Positions 2,141 through 25,200 of a stretch of 64,000 nucleotides of DNA are shown in pieces. Source of the DNA: Eledone cirrhosa (lineage: Eukaryota); NCBI GenBank assembly GCA_964016885.1, contig CAXHJY010000973.1, positions 372,001 through 436,000 on the forward strand. Direction: 5' to 3'. Below the pieces are notes generated by a model. The model made no database searches, had not been told where the DNA came from, and saw only the letters and a list, made by a program, of their open reading frames with translations. Every line of letters begins with the position of its first letter. Position 1 is the first letter of the stretch. The translations under genes and the position numbers were made by a program.

Positions 2141-2143
2141 GAA

Positions 2144-4520: not shown

Positions 4521-5928
4521 TATTGTTAGATGGAACTGACCGTGGTCATTGGAACACTTTGGCTGCCTCATGTGTCTCAAGATGTAGGATATATTGTTAG
4601 ATGGAACTGACCGTGGTCATTGGAACACTTTGGCTGCCTCATGTGTCTCAAGATGTAGGATATATTGTTAGATGGAACTGACCGTGGTCATTGGAACACT
4701 TTGGCTGCCTCATGTGTCTCAAGATGTAGGATATATTGTTAGATGGAACTGACCGTGGTCATTGGAACACTTTGGCTGCCTCATGTGTCTCAAGATGTAG
4801 GATATATTGTTAGATGGAACTGACCGTGGTCATTGGAACACTTTGGCTGCCTCATGTGTCTCAAGATGTAGGATATATTGTTAGATGGAACTGACCGTGG
4901 TCATTGGAACACTTTGGCTGCCTCATGTGTCTCAAGATGTAGGATATATTGTTAGATGGAACTGACCGTGGTCATTGGAACACTTTGGCTGCCTCATGTG
5001 TCTCAAGATGTAGGATATATTGTTAGATGGAACTGACCGTGGTCATTGGAACACTTTGGCTGCCTCATGTGTCTCAAGATGTAGGATATATTCATAGATT
5101 GAACTGACCGTGGTCATTGGAACACTTTCGCTGCCTCATGTGTCTCAAGATGTAGGATATATTCATAGATTGAACTGACCGTGGTCATTGGAACACTTTC
5201 GCTGCCTCATGTGTCTCAAGATGTAGGATATATTGTTAGATGGAACTGACCGTGCTCATTAGAACACTTTGGCTGCCTCATGTGTCTCAAGATGTAGGAT
5301 ATATTGATAGATGGAACTGACCGTGCTCATTAGAACACTTTGGCTGCCTCATGTGTCTCAAGATGTAGGATATATTCATAGATGGAACTGACCGTGGTCA
5401 TTGGAACACTTTGGCTGCCTCATGTGTCTCAAGATGTAGGATATATTGTTAGATGGAACTGACCGTGGTCATTGGAACACTTTGGCTGCCTCATGTGTCT
5501 CAAGATGTAGGATATATTGTTAGATGGAACTGACCGTGGTCATTGGAACACTTTGGCTGCCTGTGTCTCAAGATGTAGGATATATCGTTAGATGGAACTG
5601 ACTGTGGTCATTGGAACACTTTAGCTGCCTCATGTGTCTCAAGATGTAGGATATATTGTTAGATGGAACTGACCGTGGTCATTGGAACACTTTGGCTGCC
5701 TCATGTGTCTCAAGATGTAGGATATATTGTTAGATGGAACTGACCGTGCTCATTGGAACACTTTGGCTGCCTCATGTGTCTCAAGATGTAGGATATATTC
5801 ATAGATGGAACTGACCGTGGTCATTGGAACACTTTGGCTGCCTCATGTGTCTCAAGATGTAGGATATATTGTTAGATGGAACTGACCGTGGTCATTGGAA
5901 CACTTTGGCTGCCTCATGTGTCTCAAGA
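4521..5928 (+). repeat. 71-bp tandem array (~20 copies) derived from an RTE-like LINE C-terminus
   Basis: Unit TATTGTTAGATGGAACTGACCGTGGTCATTGGAACACTTTGGCTGCCTCATGTGTCTCAAGATGTAGGATA. The last copy reads through to DGTDRGHWNTLAASCVSRHKSF* (stop 5941-5943), like RTE ends A.DR..W..L.AA.C..RH. Confidence 0.9.
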
Positions 5929-6200
5929 CACAAGAGCTTCTAAATCAAGGTAAGTCATGTTGGTACACTAAAAAGCCCACCTCCCAATCAGAAGGTCCTA
6001 AGTTCTAACCCTACATTTATCTCCCTATAAATAATTATTTCTCCAAAGTAACTCGCACGTTTTAATCCCGTATAAAGAAAGTTTATGTAATTATATCTCA
6101 GAAATATATTTTTTAAATATCATTTTCATTTTTAATCACTTCCATATGCCAGTAATCAACATAGACTATAAGGTTTCTCTTATGAAAATCATTAATTTAT

Positions 6201-6350
6201 CTTCTTCACCCACTTATTCCTGAGAGGGTTGTGGGGTCAGAGTCTTGAAACACTCCTTCCAGTGGGTCCTGTCAGACATTGCTGTCACCAGTTGATCAGG
6301 CTGGATCCCCAAGCAAGACCAGCCAACCTCATGGATGTTATCCAACCATC
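6201..6350 (-). mobile_element. Second copy of the RTE 3' end (same family as 2144-2388)
   Basis: Clear nucleotide similarity: TATTCCTGA.AGGGT.GTGGGGTCAGAGTCTT...CTCATGGATGTTATC.AACCATC. Confidence 0.85.
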
Positions 6351-6584
6351 AATTTATCAAAACACAAATTTCCAAGTTTGCGTGATTGTTCATATACCCA
6401 GTAATCCTGGTATATATGACATAATTGCTGGCCTTGTGCCTAAGAAACCATTATTGATGGTACTGGTCCACTAATCCTGGACTCCTAAAACTAACTATGT
6501 CCAATGCTATAGCTGTCATTATTGACAGCACTGGTCCACTAACCCTGGTATATATGGTATACCAATCCTGGACTCCTAAAACAA

Positions 6585-7047
6585 TTTACCGTAGGATATC
6601 CATTATGTCTGTTGTAGACAAGGTCTAATATAGGATCATACTGGACAGGCACCTTGACAATATCGCTGATGAAATCCTTCCTGAATCTCAGTGTGGCTTT
6701 AGAAATGTTAGGGAGACAACAGACATGATCTTTATGGTGAAACAGCTGCAGGAAAAATGTATTGAGCAGAGGCTGGACCTATATCAGATGTTTATTGATC
6801 TGACAAAGGCCTTTGATACAGTCAATAGAATTGCCCTGTGGAAGATTATGAAGAAACTTGGGACACAAATTTGTCTCTGAGTTGAGAGGTTTCAATGATG
6901 GAATGAAGGCAAGTGTTAATGTGGCTGGTAAGCTCTCTGATCCCATTGTGGTTCAAAATAGTGTTAAGCAAGAGGACATTCCAGCACCAACTCTGTTTGC
7001 GTTGTATTTTGCTATGGTTTTCTTGAAGCCTTTTGAAGGTTGCTCTG
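6585..7047 (+). mobile_element. RTE (BovB-like) LINE reverse transcriptase fragment, decayed
   Basis: YRRISIMSVVDKV*YRIILDR..ILPESQCGFR..TTDMIF.VKQLQEKCIEQ..FIDLTKAFDTVNR.ALWKIMKKLG..VKQEDIPAPTLF. Confidence 0.92.
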
Positions 7048-9814
7048 CACTGCATCTTTAAAACCTCCATGGAACAAACTACGTGCATCAGTTGTTAGCT
7101 GTCGAGACACTGCATCCTTTAAAACCTCCATGGAACAAACTACCTGCATCAGTTGTTAGCTGTCGAGACACTGCATCCTTTAAAACCTCCATGGAACAAA
7201 CTACCTGCATCAGTTGTTAGCTGTCGAGACACTGCATCCTTTAAAACCTCCATGGAACAAACTACCTGCATCAGTTGTTAGCTGTCGAGACACTGCATCC
7301 TTTAAAACCTCCATGGAACAAACTACCTGCATCAGTTGTTAGCTGTCGAGACACTGCATCTTTAAAACCTCCATGGAACAAACTACCTGCATCAGTTGTT
7401 AGCTGTCGAGACACTGCATCCTTTAAAACCTCCATGGAACAAACTACGTGCATCAGTTGTTAGCTGTCGAGACACTGCATCCTTTAAAACCTCCATGGAA
7501 CAAACTCCCTGCATCAGTTGTTAGTTGTCGAGACACTGCATCCTTTAAAACCTCCATGGAACAAACTACGTGCATCAGTTGTTAGCTGTCGAGACACTGC
7601 ATCCTTTAAAACCTCCATGGAACAAACTACCTGCATCAGTTGTTAGTTGTCCAGACACTGCATCCTTTAAAACCACCATGGAACAAACTACCTTCATCAG
7701 TTGTTAGTTGTCCAGAGACTGCATCCTTTAAAACCTCCATGGAACAAACTACCTGCATCAGTTGTTAGCTGTCGAGACACTGCATCTTTTAAAACCTCCA
7801 TGGAACAAACTACCTGCATCAGTTGTTAGCTGTCGAGACACTGCATCCTTTAAAACCTCTATGGAACAAACTACCTGCATCAGTTGTTAGCTGTCCAGAC
7901 ACTGCATCCTTTAAAACCTCCATGGAACACACTCCCTGCATCAGTTGTTAGCTGTCGAGACACTGCATCCTTTAAAACCTCTATGGAACAAACTACCTGC
8001 ATCAGTTGTTAGCTGTCGAGACACTGCATCCTTTAAAACCTCCATGGAACAAACTACGTGCATCAGTTGTTAGCTGTCGAGACACTGCATCTTTAAAACC
8101 TCCATGGAACAAACTACCTGCATCAGTTGTTAGCTGTCGAGACACTGCATCCTTTAAAACCTCCATGGAACAAACTACGTGCATCAGTTGTTAGCTGTCG
8201 AGACACTGCATCCTTTAAAACCTCCATGGAACAAACTCCCTGCATCAGTTGTTAGTTGTCGAGACACTGCATCCTTTAAAACCTCCATGGAACAAACTAC
8301 GTGCATCAGTTGTTAGCTGTCGAGACACTGCATCCTTTAAAACCTCCATGGAACAAACTACCTGCATCAGTTGTTAGTTGTCCAGACACTGCATCCTTTA
8401 AAACCACCATGGAACAAACTACCTTCATCAGTTGTTAGTTGTCCAGAGACTGCATCCTTTAAAACCTCCATGGAACAAACTACCTGCATCAGTTGTTAGC
8501 TGTCGAGACACTGCATCTTTTAAAACCTCCATGGAACAAACTACCTGCATCAGTTGTTAGCTGTCGAGACACTGCAACCTTTAAAACCTCTATGGAACAA
8601 ACTACCTGCATCAGTTGTTAGCTGTCCAGACACTGCATCCTTTAAAACCTCCATGGAACACACTCCCTGCATCAGTTGTTAGCTGTCGAGACACTGCATC
8701 CTTTAAAACCTCCATGGAACAAACTACCTGCATCAGTTGTTAGCTGTCGAGACACTGCATCCTTTAAAACCTCCATGGAACAAACTACCTGCATCAGTTG
8801 TTAGCTGTTGAGACACTGCATCCTTTAAAACCTCCATGGAACAAACTACGTGCATCAGTTGTTAGCTGTCGAGACACTGCATCTTTTAAAACCTCCATGG
8901 AACAAACTCCCTGCATCAGTTGTTAGCTGTCGAGACACTGCATCCTTTAAAACCTCCATGGAACAAACTACCTGCATCAGTTGTTAGCTGTCGAGACACT
9001 GCATACTTTAAAACCTCGATGGAACAAACTCCCTGCATCAGTTGTTAGCTGTCGAGACACTGCATCCTTTAAAATCTCCATGGAACAAACTCCCTGCATC
9101 AGTTGTTAGCTGTCGAGACACTGCATCCTTTAAAATCTCCATGGAACAAACTACCTTCATCAGTTGTTAGCTGTCGAGACACTGCATCCTTTAAAACCTC
9201 CATGGAACAAACTACCTGCATCAGTTGTTAGCTGTCGAGACACTGCATCCTTTAAAACCTCCATGGAACACACTCCCTGCATCAGTTGTTAGCTGTCGAG
9301 ACACTGCATCCTTTAAAACCTCCATGGAACAAACTACCTGCATCAGTTGTTAGCTGTCGAGACACTGCATCCTTTAAAACCTCCATGGAACAAACTACCT
9401 GCATCAGTTGTTAGCTGTCGAGACACTGCATCCTTTAAAACCTCCATGGAACACACTCCCTGCATCAGTTGTTAGCTGTCGAGACACTGCACCCTTTAAA
9501 ACCTCCATGGAACAAACTACCTGCATCAGTTGTTAGTTGTCGGGACACTGCATCCTTTAAAACCTCCATGGAACAAACTACTTGCATCAGTTGTTAGCTG
9601 TCCAGACACGGCATCCTTTAAAACCTCCATGGAACAAACCACCTGCAGCAGTTATTAGCTGTTGAGACACTGCATCCTTTAAAACCTCCATGGAACAAAC
9701 TACCAGCATCAGTTGTTAGCTGTCCAGACACTGCATCCTTTAAAACCTCCATGGAACAAACTACCTGCATCAGTTGTTAGCTGTCGAGACACTGCATCCT
9801 TTAAAACCTCCATG
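7048..9814 (+). repeat. 61-bp CR1-derived satellite, small array (~45 copies) within the probable NCAPH intron 1
   Basis: Monomer TGGAACAAACTACCTGCATCAGTTGTTAGCTGTCGAGACACTGCATCCTTTAAAACCTCCA. Contains an internal 12-mer duplication (variants recur 731 bp apart, e.g. 7271 vs 8002). Confidence 0.98.
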
Positions 9815-9993
9815 CTTCCTGAGATTTGCCAACACTGCACCTAATATTCCCCCTCCATACACACACATGTATATCATGACTCATACACTACTCACTTCCC
9901 TGACATTTGGATATTATTCTATGTACTATACATGCACCTTTAATGAGTTGTAGTGCACCTGAGCACTGTACACAATAATTTCATTATTATTAT
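9815..9993 (+). mobile_element. CR1 LINE 3' terminus contiguous with the array (..SMLPEICQHCT*, 3' UTR, (ATT)n tail)
   Basis: The last monomer continues CATGCTTCCTGAGATTTGCCAACACTGCACCTAA and ends TTTCATTATTATTAT. Confidence 0.9.
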
Positions 9994-10360
9994 AACTTCG
10001 TCACTTTCTGTACAGTAAGTCGTTAATTTTGGGTTTTCTTTTACAGTCGTTATATATACAGATCACATGTGTGTGTATATATATATAGACAGAGAGATTG
10101 ATAGATAGATGTGTGCAGATTGAACCCAAAATAATCAACCTTGACAATATTTTCGAGGTTTGACATTTTAGATAGAAACATAAGAGATGTTTCATATAAC
10201 AAATATATATTAAATAGAAATACAGTGACATATATAATTAATTATTTCTAGGGAATCTATAAATATTATACACAACAAATATATAGTAAGAGAAAATATA
10301 CGATGAAATAAGTGACACATAACGGAGTGTATACATACATATATATACATACATATACAT

Positions 10361-10635
10361 ATAATGGGAGAGGAGGGGATTTAATTAAAATACTTATAAT
10401 CTACACAAAATAACATTACAAATGCTTAAATAACATAAATTGCTCGCGATTCTTTCAGAAGGATATACAAATAATTGACACATAACAGAGTGTATACACT
10501 CTATTTAAGCATTTGTAATATTATTTTGTGTAGATTATAAGTATTTTAATTAAATCCCCTCCTCTCCCGTTATATATATATATATATATATAACGGGAGA
10601 GGAGGGGATTTAATTAAAATACTTATAATCTACAC
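10361..10635. repeat. Forward-reverse-forward triplication, including a perfect ~108-bp palindrome (10528-10635) centred on (TA)n
   Basis: GGGAGAGGAGGGGATTTAATTAAAATACTTATAATCTACAC occurs at ~10366 (+), ~10528-10568 (-) and ~10595 (+). Confidence 0.9.
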
Positions 10636-10813
10636 CATAGAAAATATATCGTTAAAATGTAAAATATATATCATTAAGAAAATTATGAGAAAACAAAGTA
10701 GTGAGGCACTAAACTATATTTATAGCTAGTCTAATAACTAAATAGTTTAATTATAATGAGAGATTTAATTTAATTAAAATATAAACTGGGTAAAATAATA
10801 AAAGTTTACTTAC

Positions 10814-10900
10814 GTTGTTTATAAATTATTTAGAAATATGTCAACAAAGTCGTGAGAAATAAACCATGAAAGTTTAAAACTTTGCGCCAGTTTATGAAGT
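10814..10900 (-). promoter_or_regulatory. NCAPH: Probable first exon / core promoter of NCAPH with an E2F/CDE-CHR-like element
   Basis: Consensus donor AAC|GTAAGTAA at 10813; locally CpG-rich non-repeat sequence; minus strand TGGCGCAAAGTTTTAAA at 10873-10889. The transcription start is not determined. Confidence 0.5.
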
Positions 10901-10985
10901 CTCGGTAGTTCTCGTCTTGCACGAGAACTGGACGAGATGTTGGTAATTGTTAATTTCGTTGACTGGGAGGTGCATTGATAGAGAG

Positions 10986-11155
10986 GGTGGCGGATTGGCA
11001 GTAATTGGTCGAGCGTCGGACACCATGCTTTGTGGCATAGAGTTACGTCACTTTAGGTTCTGAGTTCAAATCCCGCCGAGGTGAGCTTCGCCTGTCATCC
11101 TTCGGAGCCGATAAAATAAAGTACCAGTAATACACTAGGGTGAATTTCATCTACT
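10986..11155 (+). mobile_element. Octopus tRNA-derived SINE (OK/Meta-domain-like)
   Basis: GGTGGCGGATTGGCAG head, B-box GAGTTCAAATCCCGCC, then CC..TCATCCTT.GG..CGATAAAATAAAGTACCAG. Confidence 0.85.
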
Positions 11156-11257
11156 TTACGTAAATCAGAAACTATATTTATATACTATCACAGTTATATA
11201 AATAACATTATAAATTGCTGATAATTCTTTCAGAATGAAAATATAAACACATATAAT

Positions 11258-11447
11258 ATAATTATTTCTACTTTGGGCACAAGGCCAGCAATTAACCAGT
11301 ACATTACTGGTACTTTATTTTATCGACCCCGTAAGGATGAAAGGCAAAGTTAACCTCGGCGGGATTTGAACTCAGAATGGCAAGGGCCGTAACTCTATGC
11401 GTCAAAGCATGGCGTCCGACCCTCTACAGATACTGCCAATCCACCAA
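11258..11447 (-). mobile_element. Same SINE family, full length
   Basis: Reverse complement of the head, GAGTTCAAATCCCGCCGAGGTTAACTTTGCCTTTCATCC body and GGCCTTGTGCC..AGTAGAAA tail. Confidence 0.88.
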
Positions 11448-11491
11448 CTATTACTAGAAACCTCACAAATATAAACACATATAATACAATA

Positions 11492-11790
11492 CTACTTTCT
11501 CCAGCCGCAACCTGGTGCAGTCTGCGACTAACCCAGGTTCTGCTGCACGTCGGGGGGCTGAGGGGGCCAAACTCTTCAAATACCGGTCACTCTCTGACAT
11601 GTTTGCAGTTGTACCCTTGGCATTGGAGACTTCTGGTGTCCTAGACCCTAGGGCTACCTCCCTACTCACCACTATAGGTGCTGAGCTGGCCAGACGCAGG
11701 TGTAAGCCTCGCGAGCTGGAGTGGTTTTTCCAGCGCGTCTCCCTTGTTGTCCTCCGGGGGAACCCTCTTCTCCATTCTGTCCACCGCCGG
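11492..11790 (+). mobile_element. CRE-clade non-LTR retrotransposon C-terminal restriction-like endonuclease fragment (divergent family)
   Basis: TFSSRNLVQSATNPGSAA..AEGAKLFKYRSL..VPLALETSGVL..LLTTIG..PRELEWFFQRVSLVVLRGN matches the K..KY..P.A.ET.G..FQR.S....RGN signature. Confidence 0.85.
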
Positions 11791-11880
11791 GGGGGCTGTG
11801 GGGAGGCCACCAATAGGATTGACTCACTTGTCATGTTATCAGTCAGGTGTTCTAATGATTCTATATAAATGTATATGTTC

Positions 11881-11911
<31 letters not shown>

Positions 11912-11963
11912 AATTTTAGACCAGCATTAACGAAGCTTTAGTTCGCGGCCAAGCTAGCGAATG

Positions 11964-12000
<37 letters not shown>

Positions 12001-12049
12001 CGTATACATATATATAGAATTATTAGAACATATATATATATATATATAT

Positions 12050-12826
12050 ATATCATAAAATCACAAGATAAAATATATACCATTTCCTCTCCCAATTAGC
12101 ATAATTAACTATATAAAAAATCGAATAGACGAGGCTATAAGAATGAGGCTTCTATGAAGAAATCTCCGACAAATAATCGAAGCTAGCCCTTCGCGTCAGC
12201 CGCAACAGAATATTTATCGAATATTTCGACAGCGTAATCGCCCAGATACAGTCAACTAAACAGAATTAGGTGTAAAATAAACTAGGAGAAAATAGAATAC
12301 ATTTAAATACCTCTACCATGGTTTCATCCGTATTTTGAGTTTTCCAATAATTATGTAATAATTATATAAACTCGAGCACCGGATTCATCAGGAAGTTCGC
12401 TCTTATCTAGACACTAAATTTTCCAAAGTGATCGCACCAAGAATTCATTCAAAATGGCTAAAAATCGTGACGTAGTCGCGGTCAGGTTGGAAGGGGTGTG
12501 GTAGTTGCTTACGACTGGTGGCATTTTTGCTAGAAAGCACAGCACAATACAGCCAATTTTGTATCTCAACCTAATGGGAGATTATTACATATAAAAGTTT
12601 ACATATATATATATATATACATACATATACATATACGTGTTTTGCAACAGGTCACTTTGTGGTTCAATGATAAATTAATAAATTAAACAATCAGAGCTAT
12701 ATATCATAAAACATGTCTATAGAATCACAAGATAAAATATATACCATTTCCTCTCCCAATTAGCATAATTAACTATATAAAAAATCGAATAGACGAGGCA
12801 ATAAGAATGAGGCTTCTATGAAGAAA

Positions 12827-12830
<4 letters not shown>
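12050..12830 (-). mobile_element. Penelope-like/retrozyme-like unit with ~110-bp direct repeats, bounded by (TA)n
   Basis: 12058-12166 is repeated at 12723-12830; contains a hammerhead motif. Confidence 0.6.
12309..12396 (-). ncRNA. Minimal type I hammerhead ribozyme motif
   Basis: Minus strand: acttc-CUGAUGA-auccg..long AU-rich stem II..cggau-GAAA-ccaugg(palindrome)-UA-gaggu; canonical core with a GUA cleavage triplet. Confidence 0.8.
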
Positions 12831-12858
<28 letters not shown>

Positions 12859-13068
12859 TTCGTTTCTGAATTTGTTTAGCAAGATTCTTTATCTGAAAAC
12901 GTGTGTTGAAACCGATATTGTTATACTTTGGGAGGGTCATGTTGCCAATAAGAAACACACGCACCAGTTGCTTTCACTTCAATTTATTATAATAAATTTA
13001 TAAATTTAGGAATTAATAAATTTCCGGTTGGTTGGTTGGTTCCACAACCAGATGATTGTTTATATATT

Positions 13069-13111
13069 GTCAAAGTTCTTTCGTCGCACATTCTGTGACC
13101 TCTTCAGTGAC
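13069..13111 (-). ncRNA. Minimal hammerhead ribozyme motif (left arm)
   Basis: Mirror copy of 13708-13750. Confidence 0.6.
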
Positions 13112-13707
13112 TGGGGATTCTTTTCTTTGTTTTTGTGCCTCTCCTTTGTTCTGTCCTACGGCATCTTGTTTTTGTGTGTGTTGTGTGCTTAGTTTGCGCA
13201 TGTGTTACATCCGGGTGTCTGTGTGTGTTTATATTTGTTTATTTACATGTTACTGGTTGGTTGTTTGTTCTATGTGCGTGTGTGTTTTCATTTTGTCCTT
13301 AATTGTAAATTGTGATGTTGCTGTTCCATTCATGTTTTTTATTTAATTTGGGTTGGAGTTCATTTATGTTTATTGCCTCTGTGATTTGTCTAATTTGTCT
13401 AAAGACGCAATGTTTAGACAAATTACAGAGGCAATAAACATAAATGAACTCCAACCCAAATTAAATAGAAAACATGAATGGAACAGCAACATCACAATTT
13501 ACAATTAAGGACAAAATGAAAACACACACACACATAGAACAAACAACCAACCAGTAACATGTAAATAAACAAATAAATAAACAAATATAAACACACACAG
13601 ACACCCGGATGTAACACATGCGCAAACTAAGCACACAACACACACAAAAACAAGATGCCGTAGGACAGAACAAAGGAGAGACACAAAAACAAAGAAAAGA
13701 ATCCCCA

Positions 13708-13750
13708 GTCACTGAAGAGGTCACAGAATGTGCGACGAAAGAACTTTGAC
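13708..13750 (+). ncRNA. Minimal hammerhead ribozyme motif (right arm)
   Basis: guca-CUGAAGAG-guc-acagaaugugc-gac-GAAA-g-aa-c-UU-ugac. It has an extra core nucleotide and a tiny stem III, as in Penelope-type minimal hammerheads. Confidence 0.6.
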
Positions 13751-13989
13751 AATATATAAACAATCATCTGGTTGTGGAACCAACCAACCAACCGGAAATT
13801 TATAAATTCCTAAATTTATAAATTTATTATAATAAATTGAAGTGAAAGTAACTGGTGCGTGTGTTTCTTATTGGCAACATGACCCTCCCAAAGTATAACA
13901 ATATATATATATATATATGCCCCACCTCTATGTCACTGTCTGTTTAGAATAACAGGTACTACAAATAGATATGTTGTTACTCTATCTAT

Positions 13990-14811: not shown

Positions 14812-15392
14812 AGTAGAATAACTTAACAAATATGTTTTAAATATATACATAAATAACATTACAAATGCTTAGATAACATGTGGATAGACAGTATCGGTAG
14901 AGGGTTGGGCGCCATGCTTTGAAGCATAGAGTTACCTCCCTTTATGATCTGAGTTCAAATCCCGCTGAGGTTAACTTTGCCTTTCATCCTTACGGGGTCG
15001 ATAAAGTACCAGTAATGTACTGGGATAATTGCTGGCCTGGTGCCAAAAGTAGAAACAATTATAAATTGCTCGCGATTCTTTCAGAAGGATATATTCCTTT
15101 AATGTTACAATATTAAAGAAAATGTAAAGGAAGGGGTGAACACCAGAGCAAAAGACAGCAGCCATGAGTACTGGGCAACCTCTCTAATGATTTCTGAAGC
15201 AAACCAGCACACTCGCAGCGTTGCCTCGGGTGATGGCGAGGCTGATGCGCTGGAACAACCAACCGCCCTCGCGAGATTCGCCAGTTACCTCTATTAGGCG
15301 AGCTGCCAGTGAAGAGAGGAACCTCGCAGTCAGCGGCCCAACTTCCCCAAACGTCTCGAAAGCTACAGGCTGAAAAATTATAGATTAACATT
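14812..15392 (-). mobile_element. CRE-clade LINE 3' end (ORF stop at 15184) with AT-rich downstream region interrupted by a SINE
   Basis: FQPVAFETFGEVGPLTARFLSSLAARLIEVTGESREGGWLFQRISLAITRGNAASVLVCFRNH*, read in a different frame from the ORF-track call. Confidence 0.9.
14880..15062 (+). mobile_element. SINE (OK/Meta-like) inserted downstream of the CRE ORF end
   Basis: Full head, body and tail; the empty site is present in the paralogue at ~17450. Confidence 0.88.
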
Positions 15393-15639
15393 ATAATCTC
15401 ACTTTTGGTTTGCTGTGTTTCTCCCCTAGGATATAACGGTCCTTTTGAGTCCTTGAATTTGAGAGCCCTCTGTAAACTGTAGGCCCCATTTCAAACTGTT
15501 AATTACTTAACTTAGTAATCAGAGCTAAATACATATGATTTATTTATGGTTATATACATATAGATGTAGTGTACATGTATTTAAAGAATGGTATGATCCT
15601 GTAACTATGGTGGTGTCGTAGGGGTGCCGTATTACGGTG

Positions 15640-15860: not shown

Positions 15861-15961
15861 ATATCATTTTATAAGAATTGTGAACTATTTGTAATGTTAT
15901 TCATACAACTCTGAATAAAAACATGACAGAGAAAGTGAGAAAGAAATACAGAGTAGGAATA

Positions 15962-16047
15962 GACCCAGTACTTGACTGGTTCTTTATTTTATCGACCTCT
16001 ATCTATGAAAGGCAAAGTTGACCTGGACGGGGTTTCAAGTTGGAGAG
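15962..16047 (-). mobile_element. Old SINE fragment
   Basis: TTTATTTTATCGACC..ATGAAAGGCAAAGTTGACCT motif. Confidence 0.7.
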
Positions 16048-16074
16048 CAGAGACTAACACCACAAAATATTAAT

Positions 16075-16172
16075 ACTAATGAAAATTATTGTGTAGTGCT
16101 TAGGTGCACTACAACTCATCAAAGGTGCATGTATAGTACATAGAATAAGGTACAAATGTCAGGAAAGTGAAC
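16075..16172 (-). mobile_element. CR1 3' UTR fragment
   Basis: Reverse complement of 75-170. Confidence 0.85.
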
Positions 16173-16447
16173 TGTTAATAGTAAAAAAATAGGTTATATA
16201 GAAGTATGTGTATGTATGTGTGTGTATTCTTTCTCCACCCAACTCTTTTTATCCCAATAACTTATTTTATTGCATCGCCCTAGCCTGAGGTATATGGTCT
16301 GTAATGTGAAGAAATACCTATGATGGCTAGTAGACCACTGATGACAGATAGTCCTGGCTTCCATTTCTAATTCTTCATTTTTATATATATCCTATTTGCA
16401 ACAACACAGCTCGCCATTTTTCATTTATATACATATATATATATATA

Positions 16448-16916
16448 AATATTAATTCAAAATATTAACAAAATAGATATTCTTGTGATCAAGTTTATTT
16501 CATTATACATATTTCAGAGGTACTGAGTTAACTTCAACAGTACGTCCTCAACTTCCTGTTGAAGTTAACTCAGTACCTCTGAAATATATATAATAAAATA
16601 TACTTGATCACAAGAATATCTATTTTGTTAATATTTTGAATTAATATTAATAACTCCGGAAAACCATACTATTGAGTGCTTCCAATCTATTGTAAAACTC
16701 ATTCTTTGATTTATTCATTGAACCTTGTTTAATCTTTAAATATATATATATACTGTATATATATGACTGAATCTTAACCATCTACTATGTCAGGCATCAT
16801 CTTATTTTATCTGATGAGGAAGTACTGTTGAAGTTAACTCAGTACCTCTGAAATATGTATAATAAAATATACTTGATCACAAGAATATCTATTTTGTTAA
16901 TATTTTGAATTAATAT
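16448..16916. mobile_element. Third Penelope-like unit: inverted pair (16448-16540 / 16557-16648) plus a tandem copy (~16803-16916), bounded by (TA)n
   Basis: Three copies of CTGTTGAAGTTAACTCAGTACCTCTGAAATAT..CTTGATCACAAGAATATCTATTTTGTTAATATTTTGAATTAATAT. Confidence 0.7.
16803..16869 (+). ncRNA. Minimal type I hammerhead ribozyme motif
   Basis: uauuuuau-CUGAUGA-ggaaguacug-loop-caguaccucu-GAAA-uaugua-UA-auaaaaua; 8-bp stem I and a near-palindromic stem III (tatata in the sister copy). Confidence 0.75.
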
Positions 16917-17384
16917 ATATGTGTGCGTGTGTGTGTTATACAAAATATACACAATAATTGAAAGTGTCTTTTAAAAACAGGATAAACTACATTGAAGGAA
17001 AAGTACTGTTGAAATATTTATTCAATGAATTTGATTCTTCCAGTAAGTTTTCTGTTTTATTCGAAAGAAAGGAGTCCATCATAAAATCAAACTAAGGAAA
17101 CAATGTTTCCATTGGTCTTCTTTTGCCAATACCAGCTGATAGTCAAACATCTGGTAGAAACATCACTTGCTGATGCTATTTCAACCCAGAATGCACAGAT
17201 TTGAAACAGATTCTGCAAAGTATCCCCTGACACTTTAACAATTCCATCAATTCACCCTAACCCTCGACTAATAACTTGATTTATTGATACCAGAAAAAAA
17301 CAAAATGAAAGGAAACATTGACCTTTTTCTAAAAAACAAAACAATACTGGGTTTTTATTATACAAAGTATATAAATAAATTTAC

Positions 17385-17828
17385 AGTAGAATAACATAAC
17401 AAATATGTTTTAAATATATACATAAATAACATTACACATGCTTAGATAACATTATAAATTGCCCGCGATTCTTTCAGAAAGATATATTCCTTTAATGCTG
17501 CAATATTAAAGAAAATGTAAAGGAAGGGGTGAACAACGGAGCCAACACCAGAGCAAAAGACAGCAACGAGGGATGTCGGGCAACCTCTCTAATGATTTCT
17601 GAGGCAAGCCAGCACCCTGGCAGTGTTACCTCGGGTGATATATAGCCGGGCAACTTCTCTAATGATTTCTGAGGCAAGCCAGCACACTGGAGCTGTTACC
17701 TCGGGTGATATATAGCCGGGCAACCTCTCTAATGATTTCTGAGGCAAGCCAGCACACTGGCAGTGTTACCTCGGGTGATGGCGAGGCTGAGGCGCTGGAA
17801 CAACCAAGTGCCCTCGCGAGATAACCAG
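17385..17828 (-). mobile_element. CRE-clade LINE 3' end, paralogue of 14812-15392, with a 70-bp terminal segment in three tandem copies
   Basis: GGGCAAC.TCTCTAATGATTTCTGAGGCAAGCCAGCAC starts at 17578, 17648 and 17718; encodes REGTWLFQRLSLAITRGNTASVLACLRNH*. Confidence 0.88.
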
Positions 17829-18359
17829 AACATATTATGAAGCATTTAATTCAATGCTCTAATAAAACAGTGGAGGTGCGTGGCCTAGTGTTAAGTGTAT
17901 TGCACCTCAGACATTCTAATTCTGACAATTCACCGCCAAGTTACAGAATCAAAGAACTGAAAGTTTGTTGAATATGACTCCCCGAGTACAGGGGAGGCAA
18001 CTCTGCAAACTTCGTTATTTTAATTATTTTGTTACAATAGCGAGTTATAAAATCTTTTCAAAAGACACTCTTCATTTAAAATTACCTTTATAATTGCTGA
18101 TGAGAATTAATAAAATATATAATTTATTCACGTTTATAATAACATATATAATGATACAATGCTTACAGGAAAGTCATAAAATCACTTATATCAACACAAG
18201 TGGATAAGTTCCTTCAGAATGAAAATATAAACAGAGCATATAAAATATATATATATTTCCCTACATAAATTACAACATAATTTAGACATTAGACATTTCT
18301 AGGTTTTAAAACAAGCAAATATGTCACTTAATTGAGCAGAGGTAATGAATTTATCAGTA

Positions 18360-18483
18360 GGCAGCGAATTGGCAACGTCGTATAGTATGCTTTGCCGTAT
18401 TTGTTCCAGCTCTCTGAGTTCAAATCCCACTGAGGTCGATAAAAAAAAACGAAGTACCAGTCTAGTACAGGGGTCGAGTCATC
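18360..18483 (+). mobile_element. Internally deleted SINE
   Basis: GGCAGCGAATTGGCA head, GAGTTCAAATCCCACTGAGGTCGATAAA..AAGTACCAG. Confidence 0.75.
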
Positions 18484-18683
18484 TTCTATATCTTTTTCTC
18501 GCATCCTTTCTATCTCTCTCCTTCTCTGGAAGAAATAAGACCTGAACAGATGGGTTTCACCAGGTTTTAAAATGTCCCTGAAACAGCGTGTCACTGTACT
18601 ACCCCTACGACAGTCGACTTGGAATAGTATAAGCAGTGTTATTCTCAGTAATATAATATTGCTAGTTTGATGAAACTTATACC

Positions 18684-18898
18684 TGTTGTTAGCTGTCAGG
18701 ACACGGCATCCTTCAAAACTTCTATGCTTCTCGAAATTTGCCAACACTACACGTGATATCCCCCCCATGCACGCATGTGTGTGTCTATCATGACTCATAC
18801 ACTGTTGACTTTCCTGACATTTGTACATTATTCTATGTACCATTCATGCGCCTTTGATGAGTTGTAGTGCACCTGAGCACTGTACACAATTCTTTTCA
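18684..18898 (+). mobile_element. 5'-truncated CR1 copy with a single, unamplified partial monomer
   Basis: TGTTGTTAGCTGTCAGGACACGGCATCCTTCAAAACTTCTATGCTTCTCGAAATTTGCCAACACTACAC followed by the 3' UTR. Confidence 0.88.
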
Positions 18899-19094
18899 TA
18901 CCAGTAACTTTTATTTCGTATTAGTTTGAAATTACAAACACAAATGCCATAGCTATCAAAATTCAACACATATATATATCTTTATTACTTAATTACATAA
19001 ATATTTCACAATAAAATATAGAATCAAAACGAAAGAAAATATTAAGCCAACACTTAGTAATGTGTGTCAATTTGTTGTACACTACAAGGAGTAC

Positions 19095-19835
19095 TGGAGA
19101 CTCCCTCTAATACTTGGAGGCAAGCCAACACACTAGTAGCATTACAGCGAGTGATGGCGAGACTAAGTCACTGGAACAACCAAGTACCCTCACCAAGGGG
19201 CACCACCTGACACCTCAGTAAGGCCGGATGATAGCGTGGCTAAATCACTGGAACAAGCAAGCACCCTCACCAGGAACATTACCTGACACTTCAGTAAGGC
19301 CGAGTGATAGCGTGGCTAAGTCACTGGAACAACCAAGTACCCTCACCAATAGCATTAGCTGACACTTCAGTAAGGCTGGGTGATAGCGAGGCTAAGTCAC
19401 TGGAACAACCAAGCGCCCTCACCAGGAGCATTACCTGATACCTTGGTAAGCTGCCATCGATGACAAGAACTCCATTGTCAGCAGCCCTGCTTCTCCAAAT
19501 GTCTTGGATGCCACAGACTGAAAAACAAAATAGTTTGTCAATAATTGCTGGTATTTTAGAATTTTATTCTGTCCAGCTACAGATACAGTGACCCTCACAT
19601 TTACTGCAGCATCCAGGATGTGGGAGGGAGTAAAGGAGTCACTGACTGTACTCTCCCAAATGAGACATCAACCTCTTACCCAGGGGTCAAAGAGTAAGAC
19701 CATCTGATCTCTTCCCATCAACCCTGGACAATCCAGCTGACCCCAGAATTTAGGGGATATTTACCTGAGCCAGGGCTTGCTTAATAATTAAGTTTAGCTA
19801 ATATGGCGAATGAAACGACCAGCAAGACCAACCAT
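19095..19835 (-). mobile_element. CRE-clade LINE remnant, restriction-like endonuclease domain, with four 76-77-bp tandem repeats at the C-terminus
   Basis: AGRFIRH..LNLIIKQALAQVNIP*IL..GLSRVDGKRSDGLTL..PWVRG*CLIWESTVSDSF..KYQQL..FQSVASKTFG; CTGGAACAA at 19171, 19248, 19324 and 19400. Confidence 0.9.
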
Positions 19836-19942
19836 GGAGACCTGTAGATAAACAAGTGAATATTGAACAAATGTTTGTTACTTACAGTCACTTCTTTTAT
19901 TGTTCTGTTTATTAATCGGTACTATTAGCATATATACACCTA

Positions 19943-20110
19943 GGATGGTGGATTGGCAGGATTGGTAGAGCGTTGGACAATATGCTTTGGCATAGAGTTA
20001 CAACCCTTTGCGTTCTGAGTTCAAATCCTGCAAAGGTTAACTTTGCCTTTCATCCTTACGGGATTGATAAAATAAAGTACCAGTAATGTACTGGAGTCAT
20101 ATATATCATT
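19943..20110 (+). mobile_element. SINE (OK/Meta-like)
   Basis: Head GGTGGATTGGCAG, B-box, and CTTTGCCTTTCATCC..GATAAAATAAAGTACCAG. Confidence 0.85.
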
Positions 20111-21003
20111 GTCATATATACACCAACCATATTGTTGGGGGACTGGCTCTTTGTCTGTGGCCTACCCAGTCTGGATGATTTCCACATCTCCATTGTGCTC
20201 AGGGTCGGAGCAGATGTTTGTGGAGGATCGAAATGTTGTTGTGGCAACCCCCATTCACAAATCTTCATGGATTGTCTGGCTGTCTGACTACTGGTCAATT
20301 CACTCACCATACTCAGCTGAACCTAATAATTATTTGAACCCTGGCCAGGGTCCTCATCTTAAATCTGGAGCTAACAGAATTGGGTAAAAGGTAAATGTCT
20401 CATTTGGGACGCCACAGTAATTCTTTTACTCCTTTCAACATCATCGATGCTGCGATGATGGTGAAGGTCCCTGCATCCATAGCCAAATGGAATAAATCTT
20501 AACCCTTTAGCATTCAAACCGGCCGTAACCGGCCAGAATTTTCTCACCTCTTTCTGTTCAAACCAACCCTAACTAGCCACTCATACTGATGTTAAAGTAT
20601 TGTTCTGAAAATAAATAATATCAAAATTCCATTCGATATTGTGTGAGATAATTATATAAGATAAAGCCTTTACTACAAAAATACAATAGTTTATTTAGAG
20701 TAATGTAAATGCTAAAGAGTTAAAATACCAACAATTATCAACTGTTTCTTTTTTTTCTTTTTCAGCTTGTGGCATTGAAGAAGTTTAAGAAAGCTGGGCC
20801 ACTGATAGCAGGGCGCTGGTCATTGATGGTGGCTGGACTTACCTACATGTGATGCTCATGAGGGTACTTGGTTATTCCAGTGTTTTAGTCTCACTATCAC
20901 CCAGCCTTACCAACATGTGATGATTCTCATGAGGGTACTTGGATGTTCCATTGTCTTAGTCTAGCTATCACTTGGCTTTACCTACATACCATGTGATGCT
21001 CTC
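20111..21003 (+). mobile_element. CRE-clade LINE remnant (zinc knuckle + endonuclease), interrupted by a MITE, with ~71-bp terminal tandem repeats
   Basis: GDWL..DFHISIVLRVGADVCGGSKCCCG..GQFTHHTQLNLII..WVKGKCLIWDATV..FQLVALKKF..EGTWLFQ. Confidence 0.85.
20503..20719. mobile_element. piggyBac-type MITE
   Basis: TTAA|CCCTTTAGCATT...AATGCTAAAGAG|TTAA terminal inverted repeats with a TTAA target duplication; removing it restores CRE continuity. Confidence 0.85.
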
Positions 21004-21020: not shown

Positions 21021-21206
21021 CGGGTGGTGGATTGGCAGTATCGGTAGAGGGTTGGACGCCATGCTTTCCAGCATAGTTACATCCCTTTACAGTCTAAGTT
21101 CAAATCCCGCCGAGGTTAACTTTGCCTTTCATCCTTTCGGGGTTGATAAAATAAAGTACCCGTAATGTACTGGGTAATTGCTGGCCTTGTGCCTAAAGTA
21201 AAAACA
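21021..21206 (+). mobile_element. Full-length SINE with a 17-bp target-site duplication
   Basis: ATTATCTGTATACATCA at 21004-21020 and 21207-21223. Confidence 0.92.
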
Positions 21207-21988
21207 ATTATCTGTATACATCATATGTCGATACCATTGCAGTCTCCTCTCCTGTACATTTGACACCTCTTATACACAGCTTTTCTCTCTTTTATCCATA
21301 CTTTGTTCTTCTGACACATAAACATTGCACATCCTTTTAAGCATGCTTACTTCATTTCTCTCCAGCCTTCGCATGTCCTCTACATTCACTACACACGTCT
21401 CACTACCATGTAGCAACCTCTACATTCACTGCCCTTGCCTCACTAACATGTAGCATCACACATCCTCTACCATGTAAATTCACATATCCTCTACATTCAC
21501 TACCTATGTCTCACTACCATGTAGCAACCTCTACATTCACCACCCATGTCTCACTAATCATGTAGCATCACAACCTCTACATTCACTGCCCATGTAGCAT
21601 CACATATCCTCTCCATTCACTATTTGTCTTACTGCCATGTAGCATCACACAGGTGCCATTTCATTTGTAGAAATCCTTTTATTTTAACACAGGTAGTAGC
21701 TCCCTAAACCTGTTCCCACCTGTTCTTATTTTAGCTACTAAGTGTCTAGACCAACCACCTCCACTGCTAATTAGGCCACCTTGGTAACAGAAGCTATCAA
21801 CTATTTCTATCGTGCCTTCCTAGGATTGGAAGTTTTATTTCATTGATGCTTTTACTACCAACTATCCTTGAATCTTCTGCAAAATATAATATCTGTCTTT
21901 GGTTAGTCTGCCTTCTATCTCACTACACCTCTTGTGTATCTAAGATTTACATTGTGAACATTGTAGAGAGTTTCAGCCTACTCCTTTT
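21207..21988 (-). mobile_element. RTE-clade LINE fragment (PHD-like Cys cluster, RT end) with an internal ~40-bp tandem repeat at 21378-21650
   Basis: KGVG*NSLQCSQCKS*IHKRCS..IEIVDSFCYQGGLISSGGG..AKIRTG..FRELLP..(MLHGSETWAVNVE)n..DMRRLERNEVSMLKRMC..ERRLQWYRHM. Confidence 0.88.
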
Positions 21989-22061
21989 AATAATAATGAA
22001 AATTATTGTGTACAATGCTCAGGTGCACTACAACTCATCAATGGTGCATGTATAGTACATA
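21989..22061 (-). mobile_element. CR1 3' tail fragment, inverted relative to the adjacent CR1 body
   Basis: TAATAATAATGAAAATTATTGTGTACA..GCTCAGGTGCACTACAACTCATC is the reverse complement of 9920-9993. Confidence 0.88.
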
Positions 22062-22070
22062 CATTGAAGC

Positions 22071-22248
22071 CCTGGCAACTGACTTGGTAAACACCCACAA
22101 AATTATTAACCATCTAGACAACAACAACCCTGAGTACCTTTTTAATTTCCATGTGTCTAACACACGTGGGCATGCCTACAAAGTCAGAAAACAGCACAGC
22201 TCACATGACTTTCGGAAACATTTTTTCACGCTCAAAGTTGCTAAAGTA
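22071..22248 (+). mobile_element. CR1 LINE ORF2 C-terminal segment leading directly into the satellite
   Basis: LATDLVNTHKIINHL..LFNFHVSNTRGHAYKVRKQHSSHDFRKHFFTLKVAKV(W>*)NKLPASVV matches the CR1 signature TRGH..K......R..FF..RV...WN.LP..VV. Confidence 0.92.
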
Positions 22249-25200
22249 TGAAACAAACTACCTGCATCAGTTGTTAGCTGTCGAGACACTGCATCCTTTA
22301 AAACATCCATCGAACAAACGCCCTGCATCAGTTGCTAGCAGTCGAGACACTGCATCTTTTAATACCTCCATGGAACAAACTACCTACATCAGTTGTTAGC
22401 TGTCGAGACACTGCATCCTTTAAAACCTCCATCGAACAAACGCCCTGCATCAGTTGCTAGCAGTCGAGACACTGCATCTTTTAAAACCTCCATGGAACAA
22501 ACTACCTGCATCAGTTGATAGCTGTCGAGACACTGCATCCTTTAAAACCTCCATGGAACAAACTACCTTCATCAGTTGTTAGCTGTCGAGACACTGCATC
22601 CTTTAAAACCTCCATGGAACAAATTACCTGCATCAGTTGTTAGCTGTCGAGACACTGCATCCTTTAAAACCTCCATGGAACAAACTACCAGCATCAGTTG
22701 TTAGCTGTCCAGACACTGCATCCTTTAAAACCTCCATGCAACAAACTACCTTCATCAGTTGTTAGCTGTCCAGAAACTGCATCCTTTAAAACCTCCATGG
22801 AACAAACTACCTGCATCAGTTGTAAGCTGTCGAGACACTGCCATCCTTTAAAACCTCCATGGACCAAACTACCTGCATCAGTTGTTAGCTGTTGAGACAC
22901 TGCATCCTTTAAACCCTCCATGGAACAAACTACCTGCATCAGTTGTTAGCTGTCGAGAGACTGCATCCTTTAAAACCTCCATGGAACAAACTACCTTCAT
23001 CAGTTGTTAGCTGTCAAGACACTGCATCCTTTAAAACCTCCATGGAAGAAACTACCTGCATCAGTTGTTAGCTGTCAAGACACTGCATCCATTAAAACAT
23101 TCATGGAACAAACTACCTTCATCAGTTGTTAGCTGTCGAGACACTGCATCCTTTAAAACCTCCATGGAACAACTTACCTGCATCAGTTGTTAGCTGTCGA
23201 GACACTGCATCCTTTAAAACCTCCATGGAACAAACTACCAGCATCAGTTGTTAGCTGTCCAGACACTGCATCCTTTAAAACCTCCATGCAACAAACTACC
23301 TTCATCAGTTGTTAGCTGTCCAGAGACTGCATCCTTTAAAACCTCCATGGAACAAACTACCTGCATCAGTTGTAAGCTGTCGAGACACTGCATCCTTTAA
23401 AACCTCCATGGGACAAATTACCTGCATCAGTTGTTAGCTGTCGAGACACTGCATCCTTTAAAACCTCCATGGAACAAACTACCTGCATCAGTTGTTAGCT
23501 GTTGAGACATTGCATCCTTTAAAACCTCTATGGAACAAACTACCTCCATCAGTTGTTAGCTGTTGAGATACTGCATCCTTTAAAAGCTCCATGGAAAAAA
23601 CTCCCTGCATCAGTTGCTAGCAGTTGAGACACTGCATCTTTTAAAACCTCTATGGAACAAACTACCTCCATCAGTTGTTAGCTGTTGAGACACTGCATCC
23701 TTTAAAACCTCCATGGAACAAACTACCTGCATCAGTTGTTAGCTGTAGAGACACTGCATCCTTTAAAACCGCCATGGAACAAACTATCTGCATCAGTTGT
23801 TAGCTGCTGAGACACTGCATCCTTTAAAACCTCCATGGAACAAACTACCTTCATCAGTTGTTAGCTGTAGAGACACTGCATCCTTTAAAACCGCCATGGA
23901 ACAGACTACCTACATCAGTTGTTAGCTGTTGAGACATTGCATCCATTAAAACCTCTATGGAACAAACTACCTGCATCAGTTGTTAGCTGTCGAGACACTG
24001 CATCCTTTAAAACCTCCATGGAACAAACTACCTGCATATGTTGTTAGCTGTTGAGACATTGCATCCTTTAAAAGCTCTATGGAACAAACTACCTCCATCA
24101 GTTGTTAGCTGTTGAGACACTGCATCCTTTGAAACCTCCATGGAACAAACAACCTGCATAAGTTGTTAGCTGTCGAGACACTGCATCCTTTAAAACCTCC
24201 ATGGAACAAACGACCTGCATCAGTTGTTAGCTGTCGAGACACTGCATCCTTTAAAACCTCCATGGAACAAATTACCTGCATCAGTTGTTAGCTGTTGAGA
24301 CACTGCATCCTTTAAAACCTCCATGGAACAAACAACCTGCATAAGTTGTTAGCTGTCGAGACACTGCCTTCCTTTAAAACCTCCATGGAACAAACTACCT
24401 GCATCAGTTGTTAGCTGTAGAGACACTGCATCCTTTAAAACCTCCATGGAACAAACTACCTGCATCAGTTGTTAGCTGTCGAGAGACTGCATCCTTTAAA
24501 ACCTCCATGGAACAAACTACCTGCATCAGTTGTTAGCTGTCGAGAGACTGCATCCTTTAAAACCTCCATGGAACAAACTACCTGCATCAGTTGTTAGCTG
24601 TCTAGACACTGCATCCTTTAAAACCTCCATGGAACAAACTACCTTCATCAGTTGTTAGCTCTCGAGACACTGCATCCTTTAAAACCTCCGTGGAAAAAAC
24701 TCCCTGCATCAGTTGCTAGCAGTTGAGACACTGCATCTTTTAAAACCTCTATGGAACAAACTACCTCCATCAGTTGTTAGCTGTTGAGACACTGCATCCT
24801 TTAAAACCTCCATGGAACAAACTACCTGCATCAGTTGTTACCTGTCGATACACGGCATCCTTTAAAACCTCCATGGAACAAACTACCTGCATCAGTTGTT
24901 AGCTGTTGAGACATTGCATCCTTTAAAACCTCCATGGAACAAACTACCTTCATCTGTTGTTAGCTGTCGAGACACTGCATCCTTTAAAACCTCCATGGAA
25001 CAAACTACCTTCATCAGTTGTTAGCTGTCCAGACACTGCATCCTTTAAAACCTCCATGCAACAAACTACCTGCATCAGTTGTTAGCTGTCCAGAAACTGC
25101 ATCCTTTAAAACCTCCATGGAACAAACTACCTGCATCAGTTGTAAGCTGTCGAGACACTGCCATCCTTTAAAACCTCCATGGACCAAACTACCTGCATCA

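What the first reader, a model, noticed from the sequence alone, without database searches (positions are those of the whole stretch)
4521..22310. Repeated tandem amplification of 40-77-bp slices of LINE coding ends across three LINE clades
Seen: at least five different units, each cut from LINE ORF sequence near the C-terminus. They are CR1 61 bp (two arrays), RTE-like 71 bp x~20 (4521-5928), RTE ~40 bp HGSETW unit (21378-21650), CRE 71-77 bp (14160-14385, 19150-19450, 20840-21000) and CRE 70 bp x3 (17578-17780). The best-resolved units (61, 70, 71, 76 bp) are not multiples of three, so coding selection is unlikely. Inference: there may be a general route from LINE ends to minisatellites or satellites in this genome, such as reverse-transcriptase slippage or template re-use during TPRT, or a locally slippage-prone region.
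Basis: partly seen in the sequence, partly recalled or inferred. Interest (0 to 1): 0.72.

Follow-up and report, generated by a model that had tools for sequence, protein, structure and literature searches.

The report
Octopus satellite DNA from LINE fragments
Next to a large satellite array in an octopus-like genome, short internal pieces of dead LINE retrotransposons have been tandemly duplicated five separate times and then amplified by ordinary DNA copying, one of them into the satellite itself; this is a clear new example of a known route to satellite DNA, not a new mechanism.

Summary
The arrays are real and LINE-derived, but eight arrays reduce to five origins: CR1-like 61 bp, RTE 71 bp, RTE 40/46 bp, CRE 73-77 bp and CRE 70 bp. 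The three CRE 71-77 arrays share one junction, and the two 61-bp arrays share junction and variant pool. The 61-bp unit continues as a pure satellite of at least 41.7 kb (22248 to the window end), which is the main object. Best named protein hits are Octopus vulgaris. Each unit is an internal slice duplicated in place, with one fixed junction (microhomology or 7-9 nt filler). Variants are copied in blocks of up to 32 monomers, and the 71-bp array sits in a decayed RTE copy yet its first and last cores are identical. This points to DNA-level duplication and recombinational expansion, not reverse-transcriptase slippage. Within the window there is no 3'-end enrichment once coverage is corrected (P about 0.55); LINE enrichment depends on the census (P 0.009 to 0.13); lengths not divisible by three are chance (P 0.13 to 0.20). 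LINE-derived satellites are known. Open: whether the 2.8-kb array ending in an intact CR1 tail was retrotransposed. No genome-wide test was possible.

The parts
1..170 (+). CR1-like 3' end (last 6 codons, 3' UTR, tail); its 5' part lies before the window
   Evidence: 97% (164 of 169) to 9822-9990
4345..4520 (+). Decayed RTE C-terminal coding flank leading into the 71-bp array
   Evidence: RTE-tail HMM chained score 15.1, 0 of 1000 shuffles; 4 stops and a frameshift in 4362-4582
4521..5928 (+). RTE-derived array, 71 bp x20 (62-nt template core + 9-nt filler), followed by the last 4 codons and stop of the element
   Evidence: first and last core differ at 0 of 62 sites
6587..7047 (+). RT-domain fragment (RTE-type), cut off at its 3' side by the 61-bp array
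   Evidence: Pfam RVT_1 E 9.9e-8
7048..9814 (+). CR1-derived array 1, 61 bp x45, starting in mid-unit; contains a 12-monomer block duplication (7312-8042 / 8043-8773)
   Evidence: block copies differ at 3 of 731 sites
9815..9990 (+). CR1 last codons, stop, 3' UTR with stem-loop and ATT-repeat tail; no target-site duplication found
11485..11800 (+). CRE-like C-terminal fragment of a more distant family, no array
   Evidence: tblastn E 2e-9 to P0008
14189..14398 (-). CRE-76 array copy A (one partial unit, 76 bp, 73 bp), then CRE coding end
15050..15385 (-). Single-copy CRE coding end and 3' UTR: unamplified template for the 70- and 76-bp units
   Evidence: 80% aa to O. vulgaris P0007
17577..17779 (-). 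CRE-70 array x3 (63-nt core spanning the stop + 7-nt filler), both flanks colinear with the single copy
18672..18899 (+). Older 5'-truncated CR1 3' end without tandem units
   Evidence: 86% to 9773-9984
19149..19457 (-). CRE-76 array copy B (4 units) inside a CRE fragment spanning about 19060-19850
20838..20990 (+). CRE-76 array copy C (71-bp decayed units) in an inverted CRE fragment spanning about 20138-21000
21377..21650 (-). Irregular RTE array of 40 and 46-47 bp units around the GSETW motif, within an RTE fragment spanning about 21213-21830
22063..22247 (+). CR1-like ORF2 C-terminal coding flank running in frame into the first satellite monomer
   Evidence: 73-76% aa to O. vulgaris P0001/P0006
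22248..64000 (+). CR1-derived 61-bp satellite, at least 41.7 kb, uninterrupted, open at the window end
   Evidence: 683 monomers, 214 distinct, 84% with an identical twin, 34 block matches of 8-32 monomers; no uncovered stretch of 10 nt or more

Best explanation
This is the edge of a satellite block in an octopod genome, filled with truncated LINE 3' ends. Step 1 (inferred): on five separate occasions a 40-76 nt internal slice of a LINE copy was duplicated in place, most likely by end-joining or replication repair of genomic DNA, leaving a junction with a few bases of microhomology or a short filler. Step 2 (shown by variant patterns): the dimer grew by DNA-level copying of one to dozens of units at a time (unequal exchange, gene conversion, slippage), which reproduces the one original junction. 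Step 3 (shown for shared origin, inferred for route): array-bearing pieces were copied to nearby sites (CRE-76 three times, CR1-61 at least twice). One seed, CR1-61, reached satellite size. LINE coding ends supply the seeds mainly because they are the commonest complex, GC-richer sequence at this locus. No function of the arrays is implied.
For: Units are colinear with both flanks of their element for RTE-71, CRE-70 and CRE-76 copy B, and none includes the element tail. One constant junction per unit: ATG/CATG overlap for CR1-61, 9-nt filler for RTE-71, 7-nt filler for CRE-70, about 1 nt for CRE-76. Block copying: 731-nt block with 3 differences against a mean of about 2.7 per 61 nt between monomers; 34 runs of 8-32 near-identical monomers at lags of 10-318; adjacent identical 4-site variants in the 71-mer array. 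RTE-71 flank has 4 stops and a frameshift while first and last cores are identical, so the array is much younger than the insertion. All three CRE-70 units share five differences from the single-copy paralogue. No 3' enrichment after coverage correction, and LINE GC 44% against 34% elsewhere. Non-LINE tandem units and fold-back repeats share the region. Units show no unusual folding (RNA z -1.7 to +1.6).
Against: 5 of 6 origins with period 40 bp or more are LINE-derived against 29% local LINE coverage (P 0.009), and four units lie within about 120 nt of a stop codon (P 0.09-0.10). Template cores of 61, 62 and 63 nt in three clades cluster more than expected under wide priors (P 0.012-0.092). 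For CR1-61 the array divergence (2.4% from consensus) is similar to that of the 3' tails (3% pairwise), so the first duplication cannot be dated after insertion. Full homogenisation could in principle erase the age of the RTE-71 edges. The nature of step 1 is not directly observed.
Confidence: 0.7

Rival explanations
1. Reverse transcriptase jumps back 60-76 nt during target-primed reverse transcription and copies a slice twice; this seeds the dimer at insertion, and DNA-level processes expand it later.
For: Microhomology and non-templated filler are also typical of LINE 5' junctions (recalled knowledge). Cores of 61-63 nt recur. Four of five units are near the stop codon. CR1-61 array age matches tail age.
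Against: RTE-71 edges are identical inside a heavily decayed copy. Positional enrichment is not significant. The 4 of 6 CR1 relatives that read through to the C-terminus hold the slice once. Repeated RT jumps would give varied junctions; all are constant.
Confidence: 0.13
2. Array-bearing LINE ends remain mobile: array 1 is a 5'-truncated retrocopy of a transcript running through the satellite into the CR1 3' end, and the CRE-76 copies spread the same way.
For: Array 1 starts in mid-unit and ends at the natural CR1 tail with the 3' stem-loop intact (DNA fold z -2.1). It shares 10 of its 23 variant alleles with the 26 common alleles of array 2 (P 2e-4, uncorrected for mutation bias) and some linked pairs, so it was drawn from an already varied array. 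CRE-76 copies share junction and inner-unit variants but have different flanks.
Against: No target-site duplication, and the interrupted RT fragment does not resume after the tail. All copies lie within about 15 kb, which fits local DNA rearrangement better than random retrotransposition. No run of 2 or more identical monomers links array 1 to the visible part of array 2.
Confidence: 0.2
3. Small circles of LINE DNA or RNA were amplified by rolling-circle copying and reinserted as concatemers.
For: Constant junction with filler; 10 of 20 RTE-71 units are identical to the consensus.
Against: Arrays sit at the natural position of the slice with colinear flanks; variants are nested in blocks rather than scattered.
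Confidence: 0.05
4. The arrays are assembly or sequencing artefacts.
For: Fold-back repeats nearby can arise as library chimeras (recalled knowledge); raw reads were not available.
Against: 214 distinct monomers with hierarchical blocks; decayed CRE units only 64-87% alike.
Confidence: 0.02

Closest known systems
LINE-derived satellites: cetacean common satellite (L1 3' part), chicken HinfI/SCR1 (CR1 partial ORF2 + 3' UTR), Phodopus PROsat and seal Pvc20 (L1 ORF2), as listed in PMC9659126 (passages, sections 2.2 and 4 read)
   Same: Satellite monomer taken from the 3' part or ORF2 of a LINE.
   Different: Here the whole monomer is a 61-bp coding slice, the parental 5' flank is still attached in frame, and four other LINE seeds of smaller size lie within 18 kb. 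The review finds no conclusive preference for any part of a TE.
SINE-derived satellites of squamates (PMC10702118; parts 1, 3 and 4 of 5 read)
   Same: Internal slice of a retroposon (about 70-290 nt) tandemly repeated from a few to about 1000 copies, with terminal units running on into the parent element; independent origins from several families; many short variable loci and few long ones.
   Different: Source is SINE, not LINE coding sequence; host is reptile; those arrays are subtelomeric, while the position of this window is unknown.
LTR-retrotransposon-derived satellites of Lathyrus sativus (PMC7004042; abstract only)
   Same: Short arrays carried inside dispersed retroelements, occasionally expanding to satellite length in favourable regions.
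   Different: LTR elements; there carriage by the element is established, here it is only a rival reading.
TE tandem dimers by double insertion in Drosophila (PMC5932611; abstract and one results section read)
   Same: TE dimers as substrate for later expansion.
   Different: Non-LTR dimers there are mostly tail-to-internal; the five units here are internal-to-internal and contain no tail.

Membership tests
TE-derived satellite DNA | Long uninterrupted head-to-tail array of one monomer | tested here: met
   At least 41.7 kb, 683 monomers, one strand, no gap of 10 nt or more
TE-derived satellite DNA | Monomer homologous to part of a TE that exists unamplified | tested here: met
   20 of 21 aa to single-copy slice in P0001; single copy at 18672-18899
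TE-derived satellite DNA | Turnover by block duplication or homogenisation | tested here: met
TE-derived satellite DNA | Heterochromatic (pericentromeric or subtelomeric) location and high genomic abundance | not testable with these tools
   No eukaryotic genome collection; no telomeric repeat run in the window
CR1-group LINE (source of 61-bp unit) | ORF2 C-terminal motif and short 3' UTR with stem-loop and simple-repeat tail | tested here: met
   Matches O. vulgaris proteins at E 6e-22; tail and hairpin; the clade label for the motif is recalled
CR1-group LINE (source of 61-bp unit) | APE endonuclease and RT that group with CR1 in a tree | not testable with these tools
   Domains absent from the fragment; no Pfam LINE family on P0001
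CRE-clade LINE (source of 70- and 76-bp units) | RT followed by C-terminal zinc knuckle and restriction-like endonuclease | tested here: met
   Window pieces map to residues 775-960 of P0008, which has RVT_1 at 323-519; endonuclease motifs read by eye, label recalled
CRE-clade LINE (source of 70- and 76-bp units) | RT phylogeny within CRE | not tested
   No CRE RT sequence found in the window; no tree built
RTE-clade LINE (source of 71- and 40-bp units) | Post-RT GSETW motif and RTE-type C-terminal motifs | tested here: met
   E 1.4e-6; 0 of 1000 shuffles; HMMs built from unnamed relatives of the window's RT fragment, label recalled
Retrotransposed (TPRT) copy, for array 1 | Ends at the element's natural 3' tail, 5' truncated | tested here: met
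Retrotransposed (TPRT) copy, for array 1 | Target-site duplication or resumed target | tested here: not met
   Best match 5 nt and not at the junctions; RT fragment does not resume. CR1 copies often lack clear TSDs (recalled)
Double-insertion TE tandem | Unit contains the element tail | tested here: not met
   0 of 5 units contain a tail

The most novel reading that the evidence does not exclude
In this octopod, LINE machinery itself makes and spreads satellite seeds: slices of about 62 nt just upstream of the stop codon are re-copied in three unrelated LINE clades, and arrays that keep the element's 3' recognition end are retrotransposed, so that a satellite travels as cargo of its parent LINE (array 1 = 45 monomers plus intact CR1 tail).
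Probability: 0.13. Interest if true: 0.68.

Novelty: new member of a known kind. Interest (0 to 1): 0.3.

Why it matters
If the best reading holds, this is a tidy natural series of satellite birth (2, 3, 4, 20, 45 and more than 680 units) with parental sequence still attached, in a group whose satellites I found no description of in ten literature searches. It gives a candidate chromosomal marker and a locus for measuring how seeds arise and which expand. If the novel reading holds, it would give an RNA-level route for making and dispersing satellites, which would bear on the open question of how new satellites colonise chromosomes.

Tried and rejected
Rfam at gathering threshold on 1-23000: 0 matches; E-value mode on 9900-19100 gave 18 sub-threshold microRNA-hairpin matches, all on fold-back or TA-rich DNA, rejected as structural noise. 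A 60-aa peptide spanning 61-bp junctions found no candidate among proteins of 33-105 aa; weak evidence, since such arrays rarely yield predicted proteins. A 28-nt junction pattern had 0 matches in bacterial and archaeal genomes. Pfam on 13 window fragments named only the RT piece. The ESM Atlas gave no informative family for the HGSETW piece (nearest named cluster DUF6451 at 0.82, a lead only); the 71-bp flank was not searched there. A full-length RTE HMM missed the 71-bp flank and phmmer of the flank against 150 held RT proteins was not significant (best E 0.22); only the tail HMM with chaining supported it. Hairpin-driven unit choice: no unit folds unusually. Templated origin of fillers: 8 of 9 nt of the 71-bp filler occur at 6591, nothing of 7 nt for the 70-bp filler; too weak to use. 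A single regular higher-order repeat in the large array: rejected, no lag exceeds 7% identical pairs overall. Coding selection from unit lengths: uninformative. Double insertion: rejected, no tails in units. The 131-, 25- and 20-bp units had no hit to the 159 held proteins and are counted as non-LINE or unassigned; they could come from TEs I could not recognise. Viral and metagenome contig collections stayed unchecked.
Full report
Observation. Tandem Repeats Finder recovers seven of the eight arrays at the stated places. The eighth, at 14.19-14.40 kb, appears in self-BLAST and in an autocorrelation scan. The largest object is mostly outside the finding's coordinates: the 61-bp unit fills 22248-64000 without a gap of 10 nt or more, on one strand, and runs off the window. 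The host is an octopod by inference: the named hits of both successful protein searches are Octopus vulgaris (3 of 9 hits named), at 68-80% identity, so the species is not fixed.

Sources of the units. The 61-bp unit encodes 21 residues, 20 identical to residues 92-112 of a 121-aa O. vulgaris protein in which the slice occurs once. The coding flank at 22063-22247 runs in frame into the first monomer, and array 1 runs out into the last codons, 3' UTR and tail. The 70- and 76-bp units map to the end of a 961-aa protein with an RT domain and a C-terminal nuclease-like region, and an unamplified copy lies at 15050-15385. The 40-bp region matches an HMM of 16 RT relatives at E 1.4e-6. The 71-bp flank was weaker: two colinear hits on an HMM of 5 RTE tails, E 0.14 and 0.93 alone, chained score 15.1 against a maximum of 6.3 in 1000 shuffles. 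The labels CR1, CRE and RTE come from motifs I recall; no tool named the clade and no tree was built.

Eight arrays, five origins. The CRE arrays at 14.2, 19.15 and 20.84 kb break at the same point, and inner units at 14.2 and 19.15 kb share a derived base that last units lack. They descend from one duplication and are old (units 61-87% alike). The two 61-bp arrays share the junction; array 1 carries 10 of its 23 variant alleles among the 26 common alleles of array 2 (P 2e-4, not corrected for mutation bias), but no run of two identical monomers. The 40-bp array is irregular and lies far from the coding end (motif 179-194 aa before the C-terminus in 5 of 16 relatives; I also used 140 aa, a recalled value for shorter RTE tails).

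Enrichment, tested inside the window only. On a hand-made map, LINE pieces cover 29% of the collapsed 16.5 kb, and 71-72% of those bases are in the last 300 nt of the ORF or the 3' UTR. Four of five units there is expected (P 0.55-0.58); a rank test on distance to the stop gives P 0.09-0.10. The scan found 13 tandem regions with period 18 or more: 8 LINE-derived (5 origins) and 5 others (131, 20, 25, 21 and a weak 68 bp). LINE share is 5 of 10 (P 0.13), 5 of 8 after dropping the CT-rich 21-mer and the weak 68-mer (P 0.049), or 5 of 6 when only longer units are kept (P 0.009). The window was chosen for this pattern and LINE DNA is GC-richer (44% against 34%), so this is suggestive at most. Unit lengths not divisible by three are chance (P 0.13-0.20).

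Mechanism. Shown: each unit has one junction repeated in all copies (ATG/CATG overlap; 62-nt core plus 9-nt filler; 63 plus 7; about 1 nt). RTE-71, CRE-70 and CRE-76 copy B are colinear with both parental flanks, and no unit holds a tail. Growth went by blocks after mutations had arisen: a 12-monomer block with 3 differences in 731 nt, adjacent twin variants in the 71-mer array, and in the large array 214 distinct monomers of 683, 84% with an identical twin and 34 block matches of 8-32 monomers. The RTE copy under the 71-bp array has four stops and a frameshift in about 220 nt, while its first and last cores are identical. Inferred: the first duplication was a DNA repair or replication event, and expansion was recombinational. 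Against this stand the three cores of 61, 62 and 63 nt (P 0.012-0.092 by prior, post hoc), the mild clustering near stops, and CR1-61, whose array is about as old as its tails.

How array 1 got there is open. It starts in mid-unit, fused to a truncated RT fragment, and ends at the natural CR1 tail with a predicted stem-loop. That is the shape of a 5'-truncated retrocopy, but there is no target-site duplication, the target does not resume, and it lies 12 kb from the main array. I give retrotransposition about 0.2.

Setting. CRE-like DNA is 12.5% of 1-22308 against 1.95 Mb of 2.8 Gb (0.07%) in O. vulgaris (PMC13282606 supplement); species and annotation depth may differ. Long fold-back repeats and non-LINE minisatellites share the region. 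This fits a rearrangement-prone satellite border. Telomere-associated relatives of CRE in fungi appeared in a search listing only; no telomeric run is in the window.

Known work. LINE-derived satellites are reviewed in PMC9659126 (passages and sections 2.2 and 4 read), which finds no conclusive preference for any TE part. PMC10702118 (3 of 5 parts read) describes the same anatomy for SINEs in reptiles. PMC7004042 (abstract) and PMC5932611 (abstract, one section) give LTR-borne arrays and double-insertion dimers. PMC13282606 (parts 1-2 of 3 and the whole supplement) lists 80 satellite families in O. vulgaris without sequences, so the 61-bp monomer may already be in that library. Ten searches (listings only unless named above) showed no description of an octopus LINE-derived satellite. 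Subscription journals, Repbase, Dfam and bioRxiv supplements were not visible to me.

Verdict. Real, LINE-derived, five origins, one grown into a satellite; a new member of a known kind. The proposed 3'-end or RT-slippage route is not supported by what this window can test, and is not excluded for two of the five seeds. Interest 0.3.

Noticed in passing
window 22248-64000: The 61-bp satellite drifts along its length: position 36 is mostly C near the CR1 flank and T distally, and divergence from the array-1 consensus rises from 4.1% to 5.8%.
   Followed up: partly
window 1-170: Another CR1 3' end, 97% identical to the tail of array 1 but with a different downstream flank; it may close a third array upstream of the window.
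   Followed up: partly
window 12915-13904, 10342-10645, 16444-16920, 11848-12030: Long fold-back inverted repeats (arms up to 337 nt at 99%), two of them three-armed, mostly beside TA runs. They may be foldback or Penelope-like elements or template-switch products; Rfam gave only hairpin noise.
   Followed up: partly
window 21985-22061 (-) with 22063 (+); 19060-19850 (-) with 20138-21000 (+): Same-family LINE pieces in diverging inverted pairs: a 77-nt CR1 tail directly abuts the CR1 coding piece that leads into the satellite, and two CRE-76-bearing fragments face away from each other.
   Followed up: no
window 1-22308: CRE-like fragments make up 12.5% of this stretch against 0.07% genome-wide in O. 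vulgaris.
   Followed up: partly
window 10992-11139, 11258-11444, 14646-14764, 14880-15062, 15964-16038, 18413-18436, 19948-20094, 21027-21211: Eight matches to one SINE-like family, 75-96% identical; none is tandemly amplified.
   Followed up: no
window 2615-3432 and 891-1153: A G-rich 20-bp minisatellite (41 copies, 96%) and a 131-bp dimer (82%) with no recognised source.
   Followed up: partly
window 4521, 7048/22248, 17577: Template-derived cores of 62, 61 and 63 nt in three LINE clades; unexplained, post hoc P 0.012-0.092.
   Followed up: partly
window 15228-15234 (-) and homologous sites: The 76-bp unit ends where the 70-bp unit begins, within about 7 nt of the CRE template: a possible breakpoint hotspot.
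   Followed up: no
window 2131-2400 (-) and 6187-6350 (-): Two copies (83% alike) of a further RTE-type 3' end without any tandem unit.
   Followed up: partly
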